Source: a virus (Duplodnaviria > Heunggongvirae > Uroviricota > Caudoviricetes). Taken from it: 18,950 nt of DNA. The DNA lies in the IMG/VR virus record IMGVR_UViG_2778261447_000004, positions 1-18,950 of that record; one strand, 5' to 3'. The notes under the pieces were generated by a model. The model searched no databases and was not told the DNA's origin. It saw only the letters and a program-made list of their open reading frames with translations. Shown here piece after piece: positions 1,203 to 7,365 of the stretch (position 1 is the first letter of the stretch; each line of letters opens with the position of its first letter). The translations under genes and the position numbers were made by a program.

Positions 1203-1256
1203 TTGCCGCACGCCAGCCTGAACAACTGGCACCTGCTGCGCCAGCAGAGAAAACAA

Positions 1257-1529
1257 ATGGCGCACAATACCAAAAATCACAATTCTGATGCCGTTCGTGC
1301 CAGCAGGCATGGGCGGCGTTCGCGCGTATTTAAAACCGACTGGTACCAACACCCTCCATGCACTGAAGAACAGGCCGAATGGCTGATTCAGTGTTACCGC
1401 AGACACGGATACGAGATTAAGAAAGCCCTCAGCCTCGATTATCGTCACTGGATAATCTCCGTCAGGCTTCCTTACTCAGAACGCCCACCGCGTCCGTCCC
1501 GCACATACCAGCAACGTATCTGGAGGTAA
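1257..1529 (+). CDS. Hypothetical basic protein (90 aa), nin-region ORF
   Basis: Open frame ending 1 nt before the GTG start of the next gene. ATG at 1257 has only a weak ribosome-binding site; a TTG at 1203 is the alternative start. No family recognised. Confidence 0.35.
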   Translation: MAHNTKNHNSDAVRASRHGRRSRVFKTDWYQHPPCTEEQAEWLIQCYRRHGYEIKKALSLDYRHWIISVRLPYSERPPRPSRTYQQRIWR

Positions 1530-1530
1530 C

Positions 1531-2580
1531 GTGCGGGTATTACTTCGACCTGTTCCGGTACCGGAACTCGGGCTGGTGGTCCTTAAGCCGGGCCGTGAAT
1601 CCATGCAGGTATTTCATAATCCTCGTGTGCTGGTGGAGCCGGAACCGAAAAGCATGCGTGGTCTGCCGTCCGGAGTCGTGCCTGCCGTTCGCCAGCCGCT
1701 GGCGGAGGACAAATCATTACTGCCATTTTTCAGCAATGAGCGGGTGATTCGTGCTGCTGGCGGTGCTGGTGCACTGTCTGACTGGCTGTCGCGTCATGTC
1801 AAATCCTGCCAGTGGCCTCATGGTGACTATCATCACAGTGAAACCGTCATACATCGTTACGGTACCGGTGCGATGGTATTGTGCTGGCACTGCGACAATC
1901 AGTTGCGTGACCAGACATCCGAATCACTTGGGCAACTTGCTCAGCAAAACCTGTCAGCATGGATGATTGACGTCATCCGTCACGCAATGAATGGCGCACA
2001 GGAGCGGGAATTATCGCTGGCTGAATTGTACTGCTGGGCTGCTGTAAATGATGTAGTGGATGCCATGACCGAAAATATGGCGCGTCGAATCCTGAAGCTT
2101 CCGGGTGAAAAAATCCGCTCAATATACCGCGAGAGCGACATCATACCGGGAGAACAGACTGCCACCAGCATACTGAAGCAGCGCACAAAAAATATTGTGC
2201 TACCGCCTCACGCCCACCAGCAACAGAACCCACCACAGGAAAAGACGGTGGTCAGCATTGCCGTTGATCCGGAGTCTCCTGAATCTTTCATGAAGCGACC
2301 TAAACGTCGCCGTTGGGTAAATGAGAAATATACGCGCTGGGTAAAGACACAGCCGTGTGCGTGTTGTGGTAAGCCAGCCGACGATCCCCATCACCTGATT
2401 GGTCATGGTCAGGGCGGAATGGGAACAAAATCCCACGATATTTTTACGCTACCGCTGTGCCGGGAGCATCACAATGAACTTCATGCTGATCCGCTGGCAT
2501 TTGAAGAAAAGCATGGTTCCCAGATTGATTTAATTTTTCGTTTTCTTGATCACGCCTTTGCAACCGGCGTGCTCGGGTAA
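1531..2580 (+). CDS. DUF968-type prophage protein (349 aa) with C-terminal Cys/His HNH-like motif; resembles YdfU of the E. coli Qin prophage
   Basis: GTG start with GGAGG 5 nt upstream. C-terminus CACCGKPADDPHHLIGHGQGGMGTKSHDIFTLPLCREHHNELHA is a zinc-binding HNH-like signature typical of DUF968. The length matches my recollection of YdfU, but I am not certain of it. Confidence 0.75.
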   Translation: MRVLLRPVPVPELGLVVLKPGRESMQVFHNPRVLVEPEPKSMRGLPSGVVPAVRQPLAEDKSLLPFFSNERVIRAAGGAGALSDWLSRHVKSCQWPHGDYHHSETVIHRYGTGAMVLCWHCDNQLRDQTSESLGQLAQQNLSAWMIDVIRHAMNGAQERELSLAELYCWAAVNDVVDAMTENMARRILKLPGEKIRSIYRESDIIPGEQTATSILKQRTKNIVLPPHAHQQQNPPQEKTVVSIAVDPESPESFMKRPKRRRWVNEKYTRWVKTQPCACCGKPADDPHHLIGHGQGGMGTKSHDIFTLPLCREHHNELHADPLAFEEKHGSQIDLIFRFLDHAFATGVLG

Positions 2581-2592
2581 AAGAGGTTACTG

Positions 2593-2967
2593 ATGCGTAT
2601 AGAGTTTGTTTTGCCTTACCCGCCGACGGTGAACACCTACTGGCGACGTCGTGGCAGCACATATTTTGTATCAAAAGCCGGTGAGTGTTATCGCCGTGAT
2701 GTGGCACTTATTGTTCGCCAGCAGCGGCTGAAATTAAACCTGTCCGGAAGGCTGGCGATAAAGATTATTGCAGAGCCACCGGATAAGCGCCGTCGTGACC
2801 TGGACAATATCCTGAAAGCACCACTGGATGCGCTGACGCATGCCGGACTTCTCATAGACGACGAGCAGTTTGATGAAATCAATATTGTGCGCGGTCAGCC
2901 TGTTCCTGGTGGGCGGCTGGGCGTGAAGATTTACGAAATAATGCATGACGGGGAGGTCCAAAAATGA
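2593..2967 (+). CDS. rusA: Crossover junction endodeoxyribonuclease RusA (Holliday junction resolvase)
   Basis: Ribosome-binding site AAGAGG. Contains the RusA signature PDKRRRDLDN and DALTHAGLLIDDEQ, alignable to E. coli RusA (PDRRRRDLDN, DALTKAGFWLDDAQ). Typical position just upstream of Q. Confidence 0.85.
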   Translation: MRIEFVLPYPPTVNTYWRRRGSTYFVSKAGECYRRDVALIVRQQRLKLNLSGRLAIKIIAEPPDKRRRDLDNILKAPLDALTHAGLLIDDEQFDEINIVRGQPVPGGRLGVKIYEIMHDGEVQK

Positions 2968-3785
2968 AACTGGAAGATTTACCGAAATACTATTCCCCAA
3001 AATCGCCAGGCCTGACTGATGCATCCGTCTCGACGTCAAAAGATGCGCTGAGCATCACTGATGTGATGGCTGCGCAGGGTATGACACAAAACCGGGCTGA
3101 GATGGGATTTTCTGCGTTCCTGGGGAAAATGGGCATCAGTATGAATGACAGAACGCGGGCAACAGAATTACTGGCAGATTATGCACTCAGTCGGTGCGAT
3201 CGCGTGGCGGCGTTGAGAAAACTTCCGGCAGAAATAAAACCGACAGTGATGCGCATTATGGCTTCGTACGCTTTTGAGGATTATGCCCGTAGTGCAGCGA
3301 GTAAAAAACAGTGCCCTTGTTGCGGTGGGAAAAAATTTATTGAAAGCGTAGTTTTTACAAACAAGGTCCAGTATCCGGATGGTAAACCGCCGGTATGGGC
3401 AAAGTGTACAAAGGGTGTGTATCCGTCTTACTGGGAAGAATGGAAAAAAGTCCGGGAAGTGGTAAAAGTTGCCTGTCCTGAATGCGGGGGAAAGGGTGAG
3501 GTCTCCACCGCCTGTAATGATTGCCGTGGGCGTGGTGTCGCCATTCATCGTGAAGAGTCGGTAAAACGTGGTATGCCTGTTATCAGAGACTGCCAGCGTT
3601 GTGGTGGTCGTGGCTATGAAAGATTACCGTCAACAGAGGCGTTTAATGCCATATGCAAAGTGACGAGCGCTATCACTCTTGATACGTGGAAAAAATCAGT
3701 GAAGCGTTTTTACGATACGCTGGTGGTTCGGTTTGACATTGAAGAGTCATGGGCGGAGCGGCAGTTGAAGAGGGTAACGCGATAG
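2964..3785 (+). CDS. Late-gene antiterminator Q-like protein (273 aa) with four DnaJ-type CxxCxGxG zinc-finger repeats
   Basis: Start overlaps the rusA stop (ATGA). Lies immediately upstream of a PR'-like promoter and tR'-like terminator. Cys-rich repeats CPCCGGKK, CPECGGKG, CNDCRGRG, CQRCGGRG. Assignment is by synteny and Zn-finger content, not confirmed homology. Confidence 0.6.
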   Translation: MKLEDLPKYYSPKSPGLTDASVSTSKDALSITDVMAAQGMTQNRAEMGFSAFLGKMGISMNDRTRATELLADYALSRCDRVAALRKLPAEIKPTVMRIMASYAFEDYARSAASKKQCPCCGGKKFIESVVFTNKVQYPDGKPPVWAKCTKGVYPSYWEEWKKVREVVKVACPECGGKGEVSTACNDCRGRGVAIHREESVKRGMPVIRDCQRCGGRGYERLPSTEAFNAICKVTSAITLDTWKKSVKRFYDTLVVRFDIEESWAERQLKRVTR

Positions 3786-3790
3786 TGTTG

Positions 3791-3833
3791 TTGATTTTTC
3801 CCGAATCTGTGGTAAATTCGCACTAACGATGGG
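3791..3833 (+). promoter_or_regulatory. Late promoter PR'-like with extended -10 and sigma70 pause element (qut region)
   Basis: -35 TTGATT (3791-3796), 16-bp spacer, extended -10 TGgTAAATT (3810-3818), then AACGATGGG (3825-3833). Lambda PR' has the same architecture (GGGTAAATT followed by AACGATGGG). Confidence 0.7.
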
Positions 3834-3867
3834 CGTTTTATACCTGACGTTAAAAGATTTTTTACAA

Positions 3868-3890
3868 CCCGCCGCCGTGCGGGTTTTTTT
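3868..3890 (+). terminator. Rho-independent terminator, tR'-like
   Basis: Stem CCCGC (3868-3872), loop CGCCGT, stem GCGGG (3879-3883), then seven T (3884-3890). Lies about 65 nt after the predicted late transcription start. Confidence 0.75.
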
Positions 3891-4011
3891 GTGTCCGAAA
3901 AACAGCACAGGACGTTAAACGCGCTGGTGGTTGCGAATACAGGTCTTTCAGCTTGCTGGCTTTTTAGACAAGAGTTATTGGTATGTCATGTTAACCAGAA
4001 GGGAAAAAGAC

Positions 4012-4209
4012 ATGCTAAAACAGCAAGATATGACAGAAACCGCCAGAGTGGTGCTTAATGAATTAAGCGTCACCGAACCGGCGACCGTCGGGGAGATTGC
4101 GCAGAATACTTACCTTTCACGCGAATGCTGCCAGTTAATACTGACCCAGCTTGTTATGGCGGGCCTGGCAGATTATCAGTTCGGTTGTTACAGACGCCTT
4201 CCGCAGTGA
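4012..4209 (+). CDS. Small hypothetical protein, possibly winged-helix DNA-binding (65 aa from the ATG at 4012)
   Basis: ORF 3931-4209; the ATG at 4012 has GGGAAA upstream, with alternative starts at 3931, 3988 and 4030. Segment TVGEIAQNTYLSRECCQLILTQLVMAGLADY resembles a helix-turn-helix recognition helix plus wing. No family recognised. Confidence 0.4.
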   Translation: MLKQQDMTETARVVLNELSVTEPATVGEIAQNTYLSRECCQLILTQLVMAGLADYQFGCYRRLPQ

Positions 4210-4359
4210 AGGCTTTTTAATTTGTGGTAATGGGCGGCTGGTGGGTGTTAGCGGCACCTGCCAGCCATCTGCTCATGCGTTGGGGTCACAAGCAAACCTC
4301 AGGCCCATCTGCTTTGCGCAAAAGCGGTATGAGCCTATCAGAGAAGCGCTTATTGATCT

Positions 4360-5412
4360 ATGGCTAATACTGTAAAAATATCCAGTTGTGAGTTAATCAA
4401 CGCTGATTGCCTGGAATTTATCCAGACCTTACCGGAAAACTCTGTCGATCTGATTGTCACAGACCCGCCATACTTTAAAGTGAAACACGAAGGCTGGGAT
4501 AACCAGTGGAAGGGCGATGATGATTACCTGAAATGGCTGGATCAGTGTCTAGCGCAGTTCTGGCGGGTGTTAAAACCTGCCGGAAGCCTTTACCTGTTCT
4601 GCGGTCATCGTCTGGCATTTGATACCGAAATCATGATGCGTGAACGCTTTAATGTGCTGAACCACATTATCTGGGCGAAGCCGTCCGGACGATGGAACGG
4701 GTGCAATAAAGAAAGTCTGCGCGCATATTTTCCTGCCACAGAGCGCGTTCTGTTTGCTGAACATTACCAGGGGCCATATCGCGGCAAAAGTGACGGCTAT
4801 GCAGCAAAAGAAAGGGAACTCAAACAGCACATAATGGCACCGCTGATTTCGTATTTCAGGGATGCTCGTGCCGAACTGGGTATAACGGCAAAACAAATTG
4901 CCGAAGCCACAGGTAAGAAAAATATGGTTTCCCACTGGTTTGGTGCCAGTCAGTGGCAGTTGCCGAATGAGGCTGACTATCGGAAGTTACAGGCACTGTT
5001 TTCCCGTATAGCGGCAGAGAAGTTTCAGGAACAACAACTGGAACAACCACACCACCAGCTGGTGGCATCTTATGATTCACTGAATCGCAAATATTCTGAA
5101 TTGCTGGATGAGTTTAAATCTCTCCGGCGCTATTTCTCCGTATCAGTCTCCGTGCCTTATACCGATGTCTGGACGCATAAGCCCGTTCAGTTCTACCCGG
5201 GGAAACATCCGTGTGAGAAACCGGCGGATATGCTCAGACAAATAATCAATGCCAGTAGTCGACCAGGTGATCTGGTTGCTGATTTTTTTATGGGATCCGG
5301 TTCCACAATAAAAGCAGCAATGGCGCTGGGGCGTCGGGCCTTAGGTGTTGAGCTTGAGTCAGAGCGGTTTAATCAGACAGTGAAAGAGATAAACGAGCTG
5401 GTGGGGAAATAA
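4360..5412 (+). CDS. Orphan DNA methyltransferase, beta-class N6-adenine/N4-cytosine type (350 aa)
   Basis: Catalytic motif IV DPPY near the N-terminus (LIVTDPPYF) and SAM-binding motif I FxGxG near the C-terminus (DFFMGSGST). Motif IV before motif I is the beta-class order. No adjacent restriction endonuclease ORF. Confidence 0.85.
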
Positions 5413-5418
5413 TCTGGT

Positions 5419-5440
5419 GGCCACGTCAGGTGGCCTTTTT
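5419..5440 (+). terminator. Rho-independent terminator between methyltransferase and holin
   Basis: Stem GGCCAC (5419-5424), loop GTCAG, stem GTGGCC (5430-5435), followed by TTTTTATTT. Confidence 0.6.
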
Positions 5441-5479
5441 ATTTCCATTACACAGCACCCGCATCTGCGAGGTGGGGTT

Positions 5480-5695
5480 ATGAAATCCATGGATAAGTTA
5501 ACAACGGGTGTCGCCTATGGCACCTCGGCAGGCAGTGCCGGGTACTGGTTTTTGCAGTGGATTGATCAGGTTAGTCCGTCACAGTGGGCTGCTATTGGTG
5601 TGCTGGGGAGTCTGGCACTGGGCTTTCTGACTTATCTGACGAATCTGTATTTCAAAATTAAAGAGGATCGGCGCAAAGTGGCGCGGGGAGAGTAG
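5480..5695 (+). CDS. S: Pinholin/antiholin, phage 21 S-type (71 aa, dual-start MKSM)
   Basis: Product [71 protein letters not shown] is near-identical to phage 21 S21 as I recall it. Two in-frame starts (5480 and 5489) are separated by a Lys codon, the classic antiholin/holin dual-start motif. Confidence 0.9.
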
Positions 5696-5698
5696 GCG

Positions 5699-6010
5699 AT
5701 GAATAAAAAATACGAACTGGTTATTAAAGGGATAAGTAGTCACCCGGATAAGGTTGTGGTTACTGTGGCGCTGGAGAGCGACGGCTATCCGACGCTGTTT
5801 TCGCCGCATGTGGTGATTAAGCTTGATCGTGTTGACGGCGCAGCGCTGGAGCTTTATGAAGCAGAGGCGAAAAAACGAGCGAAGAAGATTTTTATGGATG
5901 CTGCTGCCGGGTTATGTGAAGCGTGGTCGTTGCCGGAAAAGCGCCTCCATTCAGAGGCGCGGTATACCATAAAAATTAACGGTTCAGATAACTCAATTGC
6001 TGGTTTTTAA
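5699..6010 (+). CDS. Hypothetical protein between holin and endolysin (103 aa); possibly YdfR/DUF1327-like
   Basis: ATG with GGAGAG upstream, 3 nt after the holin stop. Same position and length as YdfR in the Qin prophage lysis cassette as I recall it. Sequence identity not verified. Confidence 0.55.
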   Translation: MNKKYELVIKGISSHPDKVVVTVALESDGYPTLFSPHVVIKLDRVDGAALELYEAEAKKRAKKIFMDAAAGLCEAWSLPEKRLHSEARYTIKINGSDNSIAGF

Positions 6011-6246
6011 CCTTTTGTCTCAGTTGGCTTTCCAATATCTTTCATTGGTAGCAGCATTTCGATATTGCTTTTGATATATGGATTATCTGCATGTTCTGTT
6101 AATTGATAAATGATAGCATTTTTTTCATTCTGGTCTAATACAGAAAACATAACTGCAATCATATATTTAAGAGCCTCAATTTCTCCTGTTGTTGAGTTGG
6201 GGGATGAACAGTCCGCTGTAACATTAATAAAAGTTTCTTTTTTCAT
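6007..6246 (-). CDS. Hypothetical small protein (79 aa), AT-rich antisense gene inside the lysis cassette
   Basis: ATG at 6246 preceded by AAGGA with 7-nt spacing. Visibly AT-rich compared with neighbours. Convergent with the 103-aa ORF, with a 4-bp overlap at the stops. No family recognised. Confidence 0.5.
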   Translation of the reverse strand: MKKETFINVTADCSSPNSTTGEIEALKYMIAVMFSVLDQNEKNAIIYQLTEHADNPYIKSNIEMLLPMKDIGKPTETKG

Positions 6247-6270
6247 ATCAGATCCTTAGATGGGGTAGCT

Positions 6271-6332
6271 CAGCCAACCACCCGAGCCTTAACCGGAACG
6301 CCAGTGCCCACTACACTACTGGCGGGCTGAGG
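6271..6332. other. Nested inverted repeats in the intergenic region between the antisense small gene and the endolysin
   Basis: CTCAGCC (6271-6277) pairs with GGCTGAG (6326-6332). Inner pair GCCAGT / ACTGGC has a 12-nt loop. No U-tract; function unknown. Confidence 0.3.
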
Positions 6333-6370
6333 CTTTAACATATCCAGGGTTCAGAAAACGATAAATATCC

Positions 6371-6904
6371 ATGAGCACAAAAATCAGATACGGCCTGTCG
6401 GCTGCCGTTCTGGCGTTGATTGCTGCAGGTGCATCCGCTCCCGTCATTCTTGACCAGTTTCTGGACGAAAAAGAAGGTAATCACACTACGGCATACCGTG
6501 ATGGCTCCGGTATATGGACCATCTGTCGGGGTGCCACGATGGTGGATGGAAAACCCGTTTTTCCCGGTATGAAACTGTCGAAGGAAAAATGCGACCAGGT
6601 CAACGCTATCGAACGGGATAAGGCGCTGGCATGGGTGGAGCGCAATATTAAAGTTCCACTGACCGAAGCACAGAAAGCGGGTATTGCGTCATTCTGTCCC
6701 TATAACATTGGCCCCGGTAAGTGTTTCCCGTCGACGTTTTATAAGCGGCTTAATGCCGGTGATCGTAAAGGTGCCTGTGAGTCGATTCGCTGGTGGATTA
6801 AGGACGGTGGGCGTGATTGCCGCACACGTTCAAATAACTGCTACGGACAGGTTATTCGTCGTGACCAGGAAAGCGCATTAGCCTGTTGGGGGATAGATCA
6901 GTGA
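6371..6904 (+). CDS. R: SAR endolysin, T4-lysozyme-like muramidase (177 aa)
   Basis: N-terminal weakly hydrophobic Gly/Ala-rich signal-arrest-release segment [21 protein letters not shown]. Catalytic E-x8-D-x5-T triad in [16 protein letters not shown]. Pairs with a pinholin as in phage 21. Confidence 0.85.
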
Positions 6905-7365
6905 GAAGAGTAGTCGCGATTATCTCTGCTCTGGTTATCTGCATCATCGTCTGCCTGTCATGGGCTGTTAATCATTACCGTGATAACGCCATTACCTACA
7001 AAGCCCAGCGCGACAAAAATGCCAGAGAACTGAAGCTGGCGAACGTGGCAATTACTGACATGCAGATGCGTCAGCGTGATGTTGCTGCGCTCGATGCAAA
7101 ATACACGAAGGAGTTAGCTGATGCGAAAGCTGAAAATGATGCTCTGCGTGATGATGTTGCCGCTGGTCGTCGTCGGTTGCACATCAAAGCAGTCTGTCAG
7201 TCAGTGCGTGAAGCCACCACCGCCTCCGGCGTGGATAATGCAACCAGCCCCCGACTGGAAGACACCGCTGAACGGGATTATTTCACCCTCAGAGACCGAT
7301 TGATGACGATGCAGAAGCAACTGGAAGGGGCGCAGGAATATATCCGCACCCAGTGCATTAAGTAG
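6901..7365 (+). CDS. Rz: Spanin inner-membrane subunit Rz (i-spanin)
   Basis: GTG start overlapping the endolysin stop (GTGA). Product [44 protein letters not shown] is near-identical to lambda Rz. Confidence 0.85.
7121..7303 (+). CDS. Rz1: Spanin outer-membrane lipoprotein subunit Rz1 (o-spanin), embedded in Rz in the +1 frame
   Basis: Product [60 protein letters not shown] with lipobox VVGC and proline-rich stretch, near-identical to lambda Rz1. GGAG 7 nt upstream. Confidence 0.85.

What the first reader, a model, noticed from the sequence alone, without database searches (positions are those of the whole stretch)
6007..6332. Antisense AT-rich small gene and structured intergenic element inserted between holin and endolysin
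Lysis cassettes are normally compact and co-directional. Here a 79-aa ORF with a good AAGGA ribosome-binding site lies on the opposite strand between the 103-aa ORF and the SAR endolysin, overlapping the upstream ORF's stop by 4 bp. It is AT-rich, and its upstream region contains nested inverted repeats (6271-6332). Convergent transcription into the late operon could modulate lysis timing, or the gene may be an independently expressed lysogenic-conversion gene.
Basis: seen in the sequence. Interest (0 to 1): 0.55.

Follow-up and report, generated by a model that had tools for sequence, protein, structure and literature searches.

The report
Reverse moron with conserved RNA leader
The small backwards-facing gene in this prophage's lysis cassette is a real accessory gene ("reverse moron") related to phage HK022 gp23, and the folded stretch in front of it is one copy of a conserved structured RNA leader, absent from Rfam 15, that precedes many unrelated small genes in lambda-like phages.

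Summary
A 79-codon minus-strand ORF (6007-6246) has an AAGGA ribosome-binding site, overlaps the upstream stop by 4 bp, has 31-34% GC, and has nested inverted repeats upstream. The upstream 103-aa ORF is YdfR/DUF1327, not the holin.

The ORF is a real gene. dN/dS is 0.19-0.32, it has homologs across Enterobacterales, and it is a distant homolog of HK022 gp23 ("srb", annotated as a moron product).

The "structured intergenic element" is the more interesting part. It is a roughly 85-nt 5' leader (6248-6333, minus strand) with a promoter-like region. The same leader sits in front of HK022 gp23, HK97 gp23 ("reverse moron product"), ES18 gp25 and at least 120 IMG/VR contigs. There it precedes about 20 unrelated small cargo genes, almost always antisense to late genes.

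Two helices are kept by compensatory changes, and the G·U intermediates fit only the ORF-sense strand. No Rfam family matches.

Inferred mechanism: a self-contained cassette expressed in the lysogen and overrun by Q-dependent late transcription on induction. The function of the protein (a confident three-helix bundle) is unknown. A role in lysis timing is neither supported nor excluded.

The parts
6007..6246 (-). ORF79: a 79-aa protein of the HK022 gp23 ('srb')-like reverse-moron family, predicted to be a three-helix bundle.
   Evidence: ORF listed. PGAP annotates it as a hypothetical protein (WP_032354427.1) in AR_0085. It matches phrog_21218 over its full length, E 5.7e-47. dN/dS is 0.19-0.32. 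Homologs are listed. hhalign to HK022 gp23 gives probability 92.8%, E 4.1e-7. AF2 pLDDT is 89.7.
6253..6257 (-). Shine-Dalgarno sequence AAGGA, 6 nt upstream of the ATG.
   Evidence: Sequence read. AAGGA or GAGGA is conserved at this place in the leader alignments.
6248..6333 (-). Conserved structured 5' leader. P1 pairs 6325-6330 with 6270-6275. The P2 hairpin pairs 6318-6324 with 6299-6305. P3 pairs 6278-6283 with 6263-6268.
   Evidence: Covariance model R1 scores 43 bits, E 1.7e-10, the only significant hit in the window. Independent model R2, built without this lineage, scores 23.6 bits, E 6.9e-6, and is the only hit with E<1. RNAalifold predicts P1+P2.
6337..6365 (-). Promoter-like region: a -10-like TATGTT at 6337-6342 and a -35-like TTTATC at 6360-6365. 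It abuts the endolysin start codon at 6371.
   Evidence: Read. A TAnnnT hexamer sits at a constant 6 nt before UCAGCC in all lineages. The strict sigma-70 scan did not call it. There is no experimental support.
5935..5960 (-). Terminator-like hairpin for ORF79 (GCGCCUC-6 nt-GAGGCGC followed by UUUU), lying inside the 3' end of ydfR.
5699..6010 (+). ydfR (DUF1327), the forward partner. It converges on ORF79, and their stop codons overlap by 4 bp.
   Evidence: PF07041, E 1.9e-27. ES18 has the same tail-to-tail pairing of a DUF1327 gene (gp24) with a reverse moron (gp25).
6119..6125 (-). A7 homopolymer inside ORF79, a frameshift hot spot.
   Evidence: An A6 allele gives the 48-aa form P0007 in L007-L012. 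An A8 allele is present in SLK172 (L005).
6011..6053 (.). The 3' end of ORF79 that survives as a remnant in ydfR-endolysin junctions lacking the gene.
   Evidence: Alignment with mEp460. About 267 E. coli genomes match only query positions 1-104, which is window 5950-6053.
6371..6904 (+). Endolysin (Phage_lysozyme), the next late gene. Its start codon marks the upstream border of the cassette.
   Evidence: PF00959, E 1.3e-24. Homology with the L007-type loci begins exactly at this ATG.

Best explanation
ORF79 is a 'reverse moron'. It is a self-contained accessory expression cassette embedded backwards in the Q-dependent late operon of a lambdoid prophage.

Shown here. (a) The ORF is a protein-coding gene under purifying selection. 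It belongs to a small family restricted to Enterobacterales that includes HK022 gp23. (b) It carries a conserved upstream module: a promoter-like region plus a leader of about 85 nt. Helices P2 and P3 of the leader are maintained by compensatory substitutions, and the G·U intermediates fit only the ORF-sense strand. (c) The same module precedes about 20 unrelated small cargo genes in HK022, HK97, ES18 and many uncultivated lambdoid phages, almost always antisense to the surrounding late genes. (d) A hairpin-U4 element follows the ORF inside ydfR.

Inferred. Host RNA polymerase transcribes the cassette in the lysogen, when the late operon is silent. The leader pairs the extreme 5' end (P1) and presents invariant loops. 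It probably sets mRNA stability or translation, or serves as a common handle for a trans-acting factor. After induction, Q-modified polymerase runs head-on through the cassette and makes a fully complementary RNA, which shuts the gene off. This is the 'noncontiguous operon' logic described for phi80 taiEcA.

The protein is a soluble three-helix bundle with no recognisable relatives of known function. My best guess is a lysogen-expressed accessory function that works by binding a partner protein, most likely interference with other phages.
For: Gene reality. dN/dS is 0.19-0.32 in the ORF frame, the lowest of the six frames on average. Homologs of 41-51% identity occur in Salmonella, Serratia and Klebsiella, and 72 clusters are found with a wider profile. 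hhalign of the ORF79 subfamily against HK022 gp23 gives probability 92.8%, E 4.1e-7. BLAST clustering links the two. The AF2 model has pLDDT 89.7.

Cassette and orientation. All homolog loci are antisense to late genes. Across 94 non-redundant leader contexts, 319 of 344 large ORFs within 4 kb lie on the opposite strand. HK97 gp23 is annotated 'reverse moron product', HK022 gp23 'moron gene product' and ES18 gp25 'possible moron'.

Leader. A 28-nt pattern hits at least 120 IMG/VR contigs. The unconstrained inner P2 pairs occur as AGT/ACT, AGC/GCT, AAC/GTT, TGC/GCA and GGT/ACC, with only G·U intermediates. In the pair counts, P2 is 99% paired with 5 pairs changed on both sides, and P3 is 90.6% paired with 3 such pairs; 0 of 500 shuffles reach the observed values for four of the five measures (1 of 500 for the number of pairs changed on both sides), and the slid controls are far lower. 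Further variants retrieved without any constraint on P2 also show compensatory changes. The CM hits upstream of HK022 gp23 (93 bits), ES18 gp25 (80.8 bits) and HK97 gp23 (55.1 bits). An independent CM finds the window copy as its only hit.

Cargo diversity. Moron-like composition. Terminator-like hairpin. Model for silencing: PMC11364771.
Against: There are no expression data of any kind.

The strict sigma-70 scan finds no promoter upstream. The -35-like hexamer is poor. In the window the upstream half of the canonical promoter region (the TACTG palindrome and the late-strand terminator) is missing.

Folding energies of single leaders are not better than shuffles. P1 is invariant, so it has no covariation support, and it crosses P3. 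The two may not form together.

The search patterns fixed UCAGCC and the outer P2 pairs, which biases part of the sample.

Frameshifted alleles at the A7 tract are common. P0007 is listed in 351 index blocks. The protein is therefore often dispensable, or the RNA matters more than the protein.

The protein's function is a guess. Pfam, NCBIfam, PADLOC, the PDB and BFVD give nothing informative.
Confidence: 0.7

Rival explanations
1. The functional product is the antisense RNA, not the protein. The roughly 400-nt minus-strand transcript pairs with the late mRNA across the ydfR-endolysin junction. It would tune lysis timing of the resident phage, or destroy late transcripts of related superinfecting phages, as shown for STnc6030 of Salmonella prophage BTP1.
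For: The transcript would be fully complementary to the late mRNA from about 5935 to 6330. The commonest E. coli allele is frameshifted, yet it keeps the leader and the rest of the sequence intact. The precedent is PMC7067206.
Against: Purifying selection acts on the reading frame. Protein homologs persist down to 41% identity with DNA that is no longer alignable. The same leader drives unrelated cargo at tail and terminase positions, so the cassette is not tied to the lysis genes. An antisense effect could still exist alongside the protein.
Confidence: 0.15
2. The conserved upstream block works only at the DNA level. It would be a promoter/operator, or a homology 'linker' that lets cargo genes be swapped by recombination. 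The apparent RNA helices would be incidental.
For: The block is highly conserved in sequence, and P1 never varies. Canonical copies carry palindromes over the -35/spacer region. Conserved flanks around variable cargo are what recombinational shuffling would produce. Folding energies are unremarkable.
Against: Compensatory double changes occur in P2 and P3. Every single-step intermediate is G·U on the ORF-sense strand, which would be C·A on the other strand or irrelevant in duplex DNA. This polarity is not expected for a DNA site. Both roles could coexist.
Confidence: 0.1
3. ORF79 is a decaying remnant or a chance ORF with no present function.
For: Frameshifted and truncated alleles are frequent. 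The gene has been deleted from most ydfR-endolysin junctions. No family of known function matches.
Against: dN/dS is well below 1. Intact homologs occur in at least six genera. The fold prediction is confident. The expression signals are conserved.
Confidence: 0.05

Closest known systems
HK022 gp23 ('srb protein; moron gene product'), HK97 gp23 ('reverse moron product') and ES18 gp25 ('possible moron')
   Same: These have the same conserved promoter-leader module (CM 93, 55.1 and 80.8 bits). They share the antisense orientation within late genes and the tail-to-tail overlap with a forward moron: HK97 gp22, HK022 gp22, and ES18 gp24, which is a DUF1327 protein like YdfR. HK022 gp23 is also a protein homolog of ORF79.
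   Different: Those cassettes sit in the tail-gene cluster, whereas this one sits inside the lysis cassette between ydfR and the endolysin. The HK97 gp23 and ES18 gp25 proteins are unrelated to ORF79 by BLAST. The window copy lacks the upstream late-strand terminator and the TACTG palindrome of the canonical module. None of these proteins has a known function.
Lambda bor / E. coli iss (antisense moron downstream of Rz)
   Different: Bor/Iss is an outer-membrane lipoprotein. ORF79 has no signal peptide or lipobox (Asp precedes the only Cys, read) and is predicted to be a soluble helical bundle. There is no sequence relation.
phi80 taiEcA 'noncontiguous operon' (He et al. 2024, PMC11364771)
   Same: A prophage accessory gene in divergent orientation interrupts the Q-controlled late operon. 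It is proposed to be on in the lysogen and switched off during the lytic cycle.
   Different: TaiEcA is a 26-kDa protein that blocks tail assembly. It is unrelated in sequence, and no shared leader has been reported. The behaviour of ORF79 is inferred, not measured.
STnc6030 antisense RNA of Salmonella prophage BTP1 (Owen et al. 2020, PMC7067206)
   Same: It is transcribed in the lysogen, antisense to late genes, and confers immunity to superinfection.
   Different: STnc6030 is non-coding and longer than 700 nt. Here a conserved ORF under selection is present.
HK97 gp15 moron (Cumby et al. 2012; review PMC3594210)
   Same: This is the prototype moron: extra DNA between conserved late genes, with deviant GC and its own promoter and terminator. 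It has a prophage-expressed superinfection-exclusion function.
   Different: gp15 is an inner-membrane protein transcribed in the forward direction. It has no shared leader and no homology.

Membership tests
Moron (Juhala et al. 2000; Cumby et al. 2012, PMC3594210) | Extra DNA between genes that are adjacent in related phages. | tested here: met
   In mEp460 and many E. coli prophages ydfR is directly followed by the endolysin. They keep a 43-47 bp remnant, so the polarity of the event is deletion there.
Moron (Juhala et al. 2000; Cumby et al. 2012, PMC3594210) | Base composition differs from the neighbouring genes. | tested here: met
   GC is 0.31-0.34 against about 0.5 in the flanks.
Moron (Juhala et al. 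2000; Cumby et al. 2012, PMC3594210) | Has its own promoter. | tested here: inconclusive
   A conserved TAnnnT hexamer sits 6 nt before the leader in all lineages. The -35 is poor and the sigma-70 scan made no call.
Moron (Juhala et al. 2000; Cumby et al. 2012, PMC3594210) | Has its own terminator. | tested here: inconclusive
   A 7-bp GC-rich hairpin plus U4 lies at 5935-5960 on the minus strand, z -2.3. It falls below the scan's U-run threshold.
Moron (Juhala et al. 2000; Cumby et al. 2012, PMC3594210) | Expressed from the repressed prophage. | not testable with these tools
   Needs RNA-seq or a reporter in a lysogen.
HK022 gp23 ('srb')-like small proteins (includes phrog_21218) | Sequence homology. 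| tested here: met
   phrog_21218, E 5.7e-47. hhalign to HK022 gp23 gives probability 92.8%, E 4.1e-7. Both fall in one BLAST cluster. A family profile search retrieves 72 clusters.
HK022 gp23 ('srb')-like small proteins (includes phrog_21218) | Length of 65-80 aa with an N-terminal extended segment followed by three helices. | tested here: met
   Alignment A9. The AF2 model has helices at 16-35, 39-50 and 56-68, pLDDT 89.7.
Reverse-moron 5' leader RNA (defined here; models R1/R2) | Scores against a covariance model built without this lineage. | tested here: met
   R2 scores 23.6 bits, E 6.9e-6, and is the only hit with E<1 in the window.
Reverse-moron 5' leader RNA (defined here; models R1/R2) | P2 hairpin and P3 helix can form. 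| tested here: met
   The window copy forms a 7-bp P2 and a 6-bp P3 with one G·U.
Reverse-moron 5' leader RNA (defined here; models R1/R2) | P1 pairing of the 5' end (UCAGCC) with GGCUGA. | tested here: inconclusive
   The two strands are complementary 6/6 in the window, and RNAalifold predicts the pairing. It never varies, so there is no covariation. It also crosses P3.
Reverse-moron 5' leader RNA (defined here; models R1/R2) | Is transcribed and starts at or near UCAGCC. | not testable with these tools
   Inferred only from the fixed spacing to the -10-like hexamer.
Any Rfam 15 family (sRNAs, leaders, riboswitches, tRNA-like) | Match to a curated covariance model. | tested here: not met
   No hit in the window at gathering threshold or at E up to 10. 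There is none on the leader in canonical loci or in HK022. ARAGORN finds no tRNA.
Known anti-phage defence proteins (PADLOC-DB 2.0) | Match to a defence-system HMM. | tested here: not met
   No hit for ORF79, YdfR, HK022 gp23 or the larger cargo proteins. The only signal is a weak PDC-M14A match (E 3e-4) for one zinc-ribbon cargo.
Noncontiguous-operon antisense moron (phi80 taiEcA type) | Gene in opposite orientation interrupting the Q-controlled late operon. | tested here: met
   The antitermination protein, holin, ydfR, endolysin and Rz all lie on the + strand, with ORF79 on the - strand among them.
Noncontiguous-operon antisense moron (phi80 taiEcA type) | Switched off during the lytic cycle. 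| not testable with these tools
   Needs a time course after induction.

The most novel reading that the evidence does not exclude
The leader is a previously undescribed, portable cis-regulatory RNA. It would be either a pseudoknot or a two-state P1/P3 switch with an anti-Shine-Dalgarno-like arm. It would place a whole repertoire of hypervariable prophage cargo genes under one common post-transcriptional control, exerted by a host or phage factor such as CsrA, RNase E/YdfR or the ribosome. Its conserved sequence would also serve as the recombination handle that lets cargo genes be exchanged between lambdoid phages, rather like a gene-cassette system.
Probability: 0.3. Interest if true: 0.8.

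Novelty: new variant of a known kind. Interest (0 to 1): 0.58.

Why it matters
Morons are where temperate phages keep the genes that change their hosts: virulence, exclusion, defence and counter-defence functions. How these genes are expressed is usually treated case by case.

A shared promoter plus structured leader in front of about twenty unrelated cargo families would give three things. First, a simple sequence tag for finding lysogen-expressed accessory genes in Enterobacterales prophages. Most are unannotated or labelled 'hypothetical', and the leader itself is unannotated in RefSeq. Second, a candidate common regulatory input for them. Third, a new RNA family for Rfam with good covariation.

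For this locus the result removes the puzzle of an 'odd' antisense gene in a lysis cassette. It is a standard reverse-moron cassette paired with ydfR.

Tried and rejected
- **tRNA or tRNA-like origin** of the GGGGTAGCTCAGCC stretch. ARAGORN finds nothing.
- **Rfam.** There is no family at gathering or permissive thresholds, in the window or in canonical loci. The STnc100 hits in related loci lie elsewhere, upstream of the holins.
- **Pfam, NCBIfam and PADLOC for ORF79.** Nothing useful. The NCBIfam FadR hit (E 0.016, 15 bits against a cut-off of 200) is noise.
- **First AF2 run with 5 sequences.** It was poor (pLDDT 66) and Foldseek against the PDB found nothing.
- **PDB profile hit to the DC-SIGNR neck (E 1.7e-13).** It is an artefact of six coiled-coil repeats at about 8 bits each. 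It is not homology.
- **Protein-based scan of genome contigs.** It found no relative. That collection holds one genome per species and the element is sporadic.
- **Second DNA pattern (TCAGCC..GATGGCTGATTA).** It returned mostly chance hits. Only 7 of 49 loci passed the CM.
- **LexA box in canonical promoters.** By reading, the palindrome is CTG-N9-CAG, not CTG-N10-CAG. I rejected it.
- **Sigma-54 -24/-12 element.** The spacing and conservation do not fit (read).
- **Lipoprotein like Bor/Iss.** There is no hydrophobic signal sequence, and Asp occupies position -1 before the Cys.
- **uORF reading of AUGGCUGAUUACCUCUGA.** The AUG lies 1 nt after GGAGG and the frame is not consistently closed. I consider it unlikely.
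- **Literature.** I found no paper explaining 'srb' and none describing the leader. Juhala et al. 2000 is not in the held library.
Full report
**Where we are.** The window is a lambdoid E. coli prophage. Positions 1208-7328 are 97.5% identical to the chromosome of strain AR_0085, and the 451 bases around the finding are 100% identical. On the + strand the order is: RusA; a Q-type antitermination protein; an N6/N4 DNA methylase (4360-5412); an S21-type holin (ending at 5695; PF04971); YdfR/DUF1327 (5699-6010); a gap; a phage lysozyme (6371-6904); and Rz with the embedded Rz1. The finding lies in the gap.

**Checking the observation.**
- The minus-strand ORF is 6007-6246, 79 aa.
- AAGGA lies at 6253-6257, 6 nt before the ATG.
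- The ORF overlaps the stop codon of the 103-aa ORF by 4 bp.
- GC is 0.31-0.34 against about 0.5 in the flanks.
- Two nested inverted repeats lie at 6269-6331.

Two qualifications apply. The 103-aa ORF is not the holin but a DUF1327 protein. Judged by folding energy alone, the repeats are not special: z-scores run from -1.6 to +0.3 against dinucleotide shuffles.

**Is the ORF a gene?** Yes.
- PGAP annotates it as a hypothetical protein, and it matches phrog_21218 over its full length.
- Of 5426 complete E. coli genomes, 97 carry the whole module at about 85% DNA identity.
- Among four divergent lineages, dN/dS is 0.19-0.32 in the ORF's frame, the lowest of the six frames on average.
- An exhaustive HMM search, followed by an indexed search, found relatives of 41-51% identity in Salmonella, Serratia and Klebsiella.
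- A broader profile found 72 clusters, also in Citrobacter, Enterobacter and Yersinia. All are 'hypothetical' and none has a Pfam domain.
- With that alignment AlphaFold2 gives a confident model (pLDDT 89.7, pTM 0.73): an extended N-terminal segment followed by three helices.

**Inserted or deleted?** Junctions without the gene still carry the first 43-47 bp after the ydfR stop, which is the 3' end of ORF79. They then jump to a GATAAAT repeat next to the endolysin start. This is seen in phage mEp460 and about 267 E. coli genomes. These junctions are therefore deletion derivatives of a ydfR-ORF79 pair.

A frameshifted 48-aa allele (A7 to A6 at 6119-6125) is the commonest form in the protein collection. 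It sits in a different lysis cassette (holin_8 / holin_3_7 / Peptidase_M15_4). Homology with the window there runs exactly from the start codon of the next late gene to the hairpin in the ydfR-like 3' end. A second lineage has the opposite slip, A8. So the module is mobile as a unit, and the protein is often lost.

**The upstream element.** I compared the 200 nt upstream of the distant homologs. The 'structured element' is conserved across genera even where the proteins are only about 45% identical. The inner hairpin changes by compensatory substitutions:
- CGTCAGTG/CACTGACG in Salmonella;
- CGTCCATG/CATGGACG in Serratia;
- TATCTGTG/CACAGTTA in Klebsiella.

A 28-nt pattern leaves the three inner pairs free. 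The free positions occur as AGT/ACT, AGC/GCT, AAC/GTT, TGC/GCA and GGT/ACC. Nearly all single-step intermediates are G·U on the ORF-sense strand, which would be C·A on the other strand. The same polarity appears in the E. coli lineages and in the downstream hairpin.

On a 77-sequence alignment I counted pairs for a three-helix model:
- P1, UCAGCC/GGCUGA: 98% paired but invariant.
- P2, the 8-bp hairpin: 99% paired, with 5 pairs changed on both sides.
- P3, (C)AGAGG/CCUCU(G): 90.6% paired, with 3 pairs changed on both sides.

For four of the five whole-structure measures, 0 of 500 shuffles reached the observed value; for the number of pairs changed on both sides it was 1 of 500. All slid controls were far lower.

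Seven more copies were retrieved with a pattern that does not constrain P2 or P3. They add fully compensated variants, such as CGTTCGTG/CACGAACG and CGCCTGCG/CGCAGGCG in P2, and GCGGAGA/TTTCCGC in P3.

RNAalifold on its own predicts P1+P2. P1 and P3 cross. They form either a tight pseudoknot, with 3-nt connecting loops, or two exclusive states. I cannot decide which.

A covariance model built only from IMG/VR copies finds the window copy (6248-6333, minus strand) as its single hit: 23.6 bits, E about 7e-6. No Rfam 15 family matches, in the window or in canonical copies.

**What the leader precedes.** Downstream of the leader, after a conserved AAGGA, come very different small ORFs of 56-210 aa. 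BLASTP does not link about 20 of the groups. The largest group (30 distinct sequences) contains ORF79 and HK022 gp23. Others include DUF1883, an aspartyl-protease-like protein and a zinc-ribbon protein. Most have no family.

Across 94 non-redundant contexts, 319 of 344 large ORFs within 4 kb lie on the opposite strand. The cassettes occur between tail genes, between the lysis and terminase genes, between Q and the holin, and, as here, inside the lysis cassette. In most cases a convergent small ORF on the late strand overlaps the 3' end of the cargo gene.

Upstream, canonical copies share four features in order: a late-strand intrinsic terminator, a TACTG-N9-CAGG palindrome, an inverted repeat over the -35/spacer region, and a TAnnnT hexamer exactly 6 nt before UCAGCC. 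The window copy is cut off at the endolysin start codon and lacks the first two of these.

**Link to known biology.** BLAST of a consensus promoter-leader against named phages hits HK022, HK97, HK633, mEp043, mEp213, ES18, SPN3UB and others. The records annotate the downstream genes as follows:
- HK97 gp23: 'reverse moron product';
- HK022 gp23: 'srb protein; moron gene product';
- ES18 gp25: 'possible moron'.

Each is tail-to-tail with a forward moron. In ES18 that forward moron is a DUF1327 protein, as here. The CM scores these leaders at 55-93 bits. HK022 gp23 is a homolog of ORF79 (hhalign probability 92.8%, E 4e-7).

The object therefore belongs to the class for which the word 'moron' was coined (review PMC3594210). 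The phi80 taiEcA work supplies a tested model for such a layout: an antisense accessory gene interrupts the Q operon, is on in the lysogen and is off in the lytic cycle (PMC11364771). STnc6030 of prophage BTP1 shows that a lysogen-expressed RNA antisense to late genes can itself give immunity (PMC7067206).

I found no paper describing the shared leader, and none explaining 'srb'. The original HK97/HK022 paper is not in the library, so an early mention of the conserved upstream sequence cannot be excluded.

**Mechanism: what is shown and what is inferred.**
- Shown: the gene is real and under selection. The leader is a conserved structured element on the ORF-sense strand. The cassette is portable, carries variable cargo and is antisense to late genes.
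- Inferred: the start of transcription lies near 6330. Termination occurs at the hairpin-U4 at 5935-5960. The gene is expressed in the lysogen. It is silenced by head-on Q-modified transcription and by the complementary late RNA.
- Speculative: what the leader does. Options are 5'-end protection by P1, binding of a common factor, or a P1/P3 switch. Most copies have GGA motifs in the P2 loop and at the Shine-Dalgarno sequence. The 3' arm of P3 (GAUUACCUCU) resembles the 16S rRNA 3' end.
- Also speculative: what the protein does. My best guess is a prophage-expressed protein that interferes with other phages.

A dedicated role in lysis timing is not supported by the distribution of the cassette, but it cannot be excluded.

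**Verdict.** As a gene, this is a new member of a known kind: a reverse moron of the HK022 gp23 family. The covariation-supported leader is shared by many unrelated cargo genes, is not catalogued in Rfam 15 and was not described in any paper I could find. It is what raises the interest.

Noticed in passing
window 6119-6125 (minus-strand A7 tract inside ORF79); L005, L007-L012: Two independent frameshifts occur at the same homopolymer. An A6 allele gives the 48-aa form P0007, listed in 351 index blocks. An A8 allele is present in strain SLK172. Downstream of the slip the restored frame is still open. This could be mutational hot-spot pseudogenisation or on/off switching.
   Followed up: partly
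window 6011-6053; L002 (mEp460) 2062-2116: ydfR-endolysin junctions that lack the antisense gene keep 43-47 bp of its 3' end. The right-hand deletion end lies at a short GATAAAT direct repeat next to the endolysin start codon.
   Followed up: partly
window 5699-6010 (ydfR): A 2026 paper (PMC13232886) reports that Qin YdfR binds the catalytic N-terminal half of RNase E and co-purifies RNA. The convergent ORF79 mRNA has a leader whose 5' end is predicted to be base-paired. A functional link between the two partners is untested.
   Followed up: no
L045-L164, about 60-110 nt upstream of the leader: Canonical cassettes begin with an intrinsic terminator that reads on the late-gene strand (GC-rich hairpin plus T6). 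The ribosome-binding site of the next late gene follows immediately. After the terminator come a TACTG-N9-CAGG palindrome and an inverted repeat over the -35/spacer region. These are possible operator sites. The spacing is one base short of a LexA box.
   Followed up: partly
leader, P3 region; window 6263-6283 and consensus in A6: The consensus GGAGGG-AUGGCUGAUUACCUCUGA contains an SD-like arm, an AUG and an arm resembling the 16S rRNA 3' end (GAUCACCUCCUUA). Read as a uORF it would encode MADYL, but the AUG lies only 1 nt after GGAGG and the frame is not consistently closed.
   Followed up: partly
[not shown]
   Followed up: no
L013 7014-7219, L014 2717-2918 / 3467-3836, L016 7265-7480: Related Klebsiella, Salmonella and Serratia prophages have one to three STnc100 (RF02076) copies upstream of their holins. 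L016 also has two tRNA genes. The window has no STnc100 hit and carries a DNA methylase gene between Q and the holin.
   Followed up: no
L054 (IMG/VR 2582580856_000003), leaders at 4302-4378 and 2250-2326; also L057, L109, L185: Some phage contigs carry two copies of the leader with different cargo genes, for example an Srb-like 73-aa protein and a 154-aa aspartyl-protease-like protein in L054.
   Followed up: partly
L007 4236-4667 and equivalents in L008-L012: In the second lysis-cassette type, the late-strand gene that converges on the frameshifted ORF79 (109-143 aa, no Pfam hit on record) ends with a YdfR-like C-terminus. The recombination joint therefore lies inside the ydfR 3' end, at the terminator hairpin.
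   Followed up: partly
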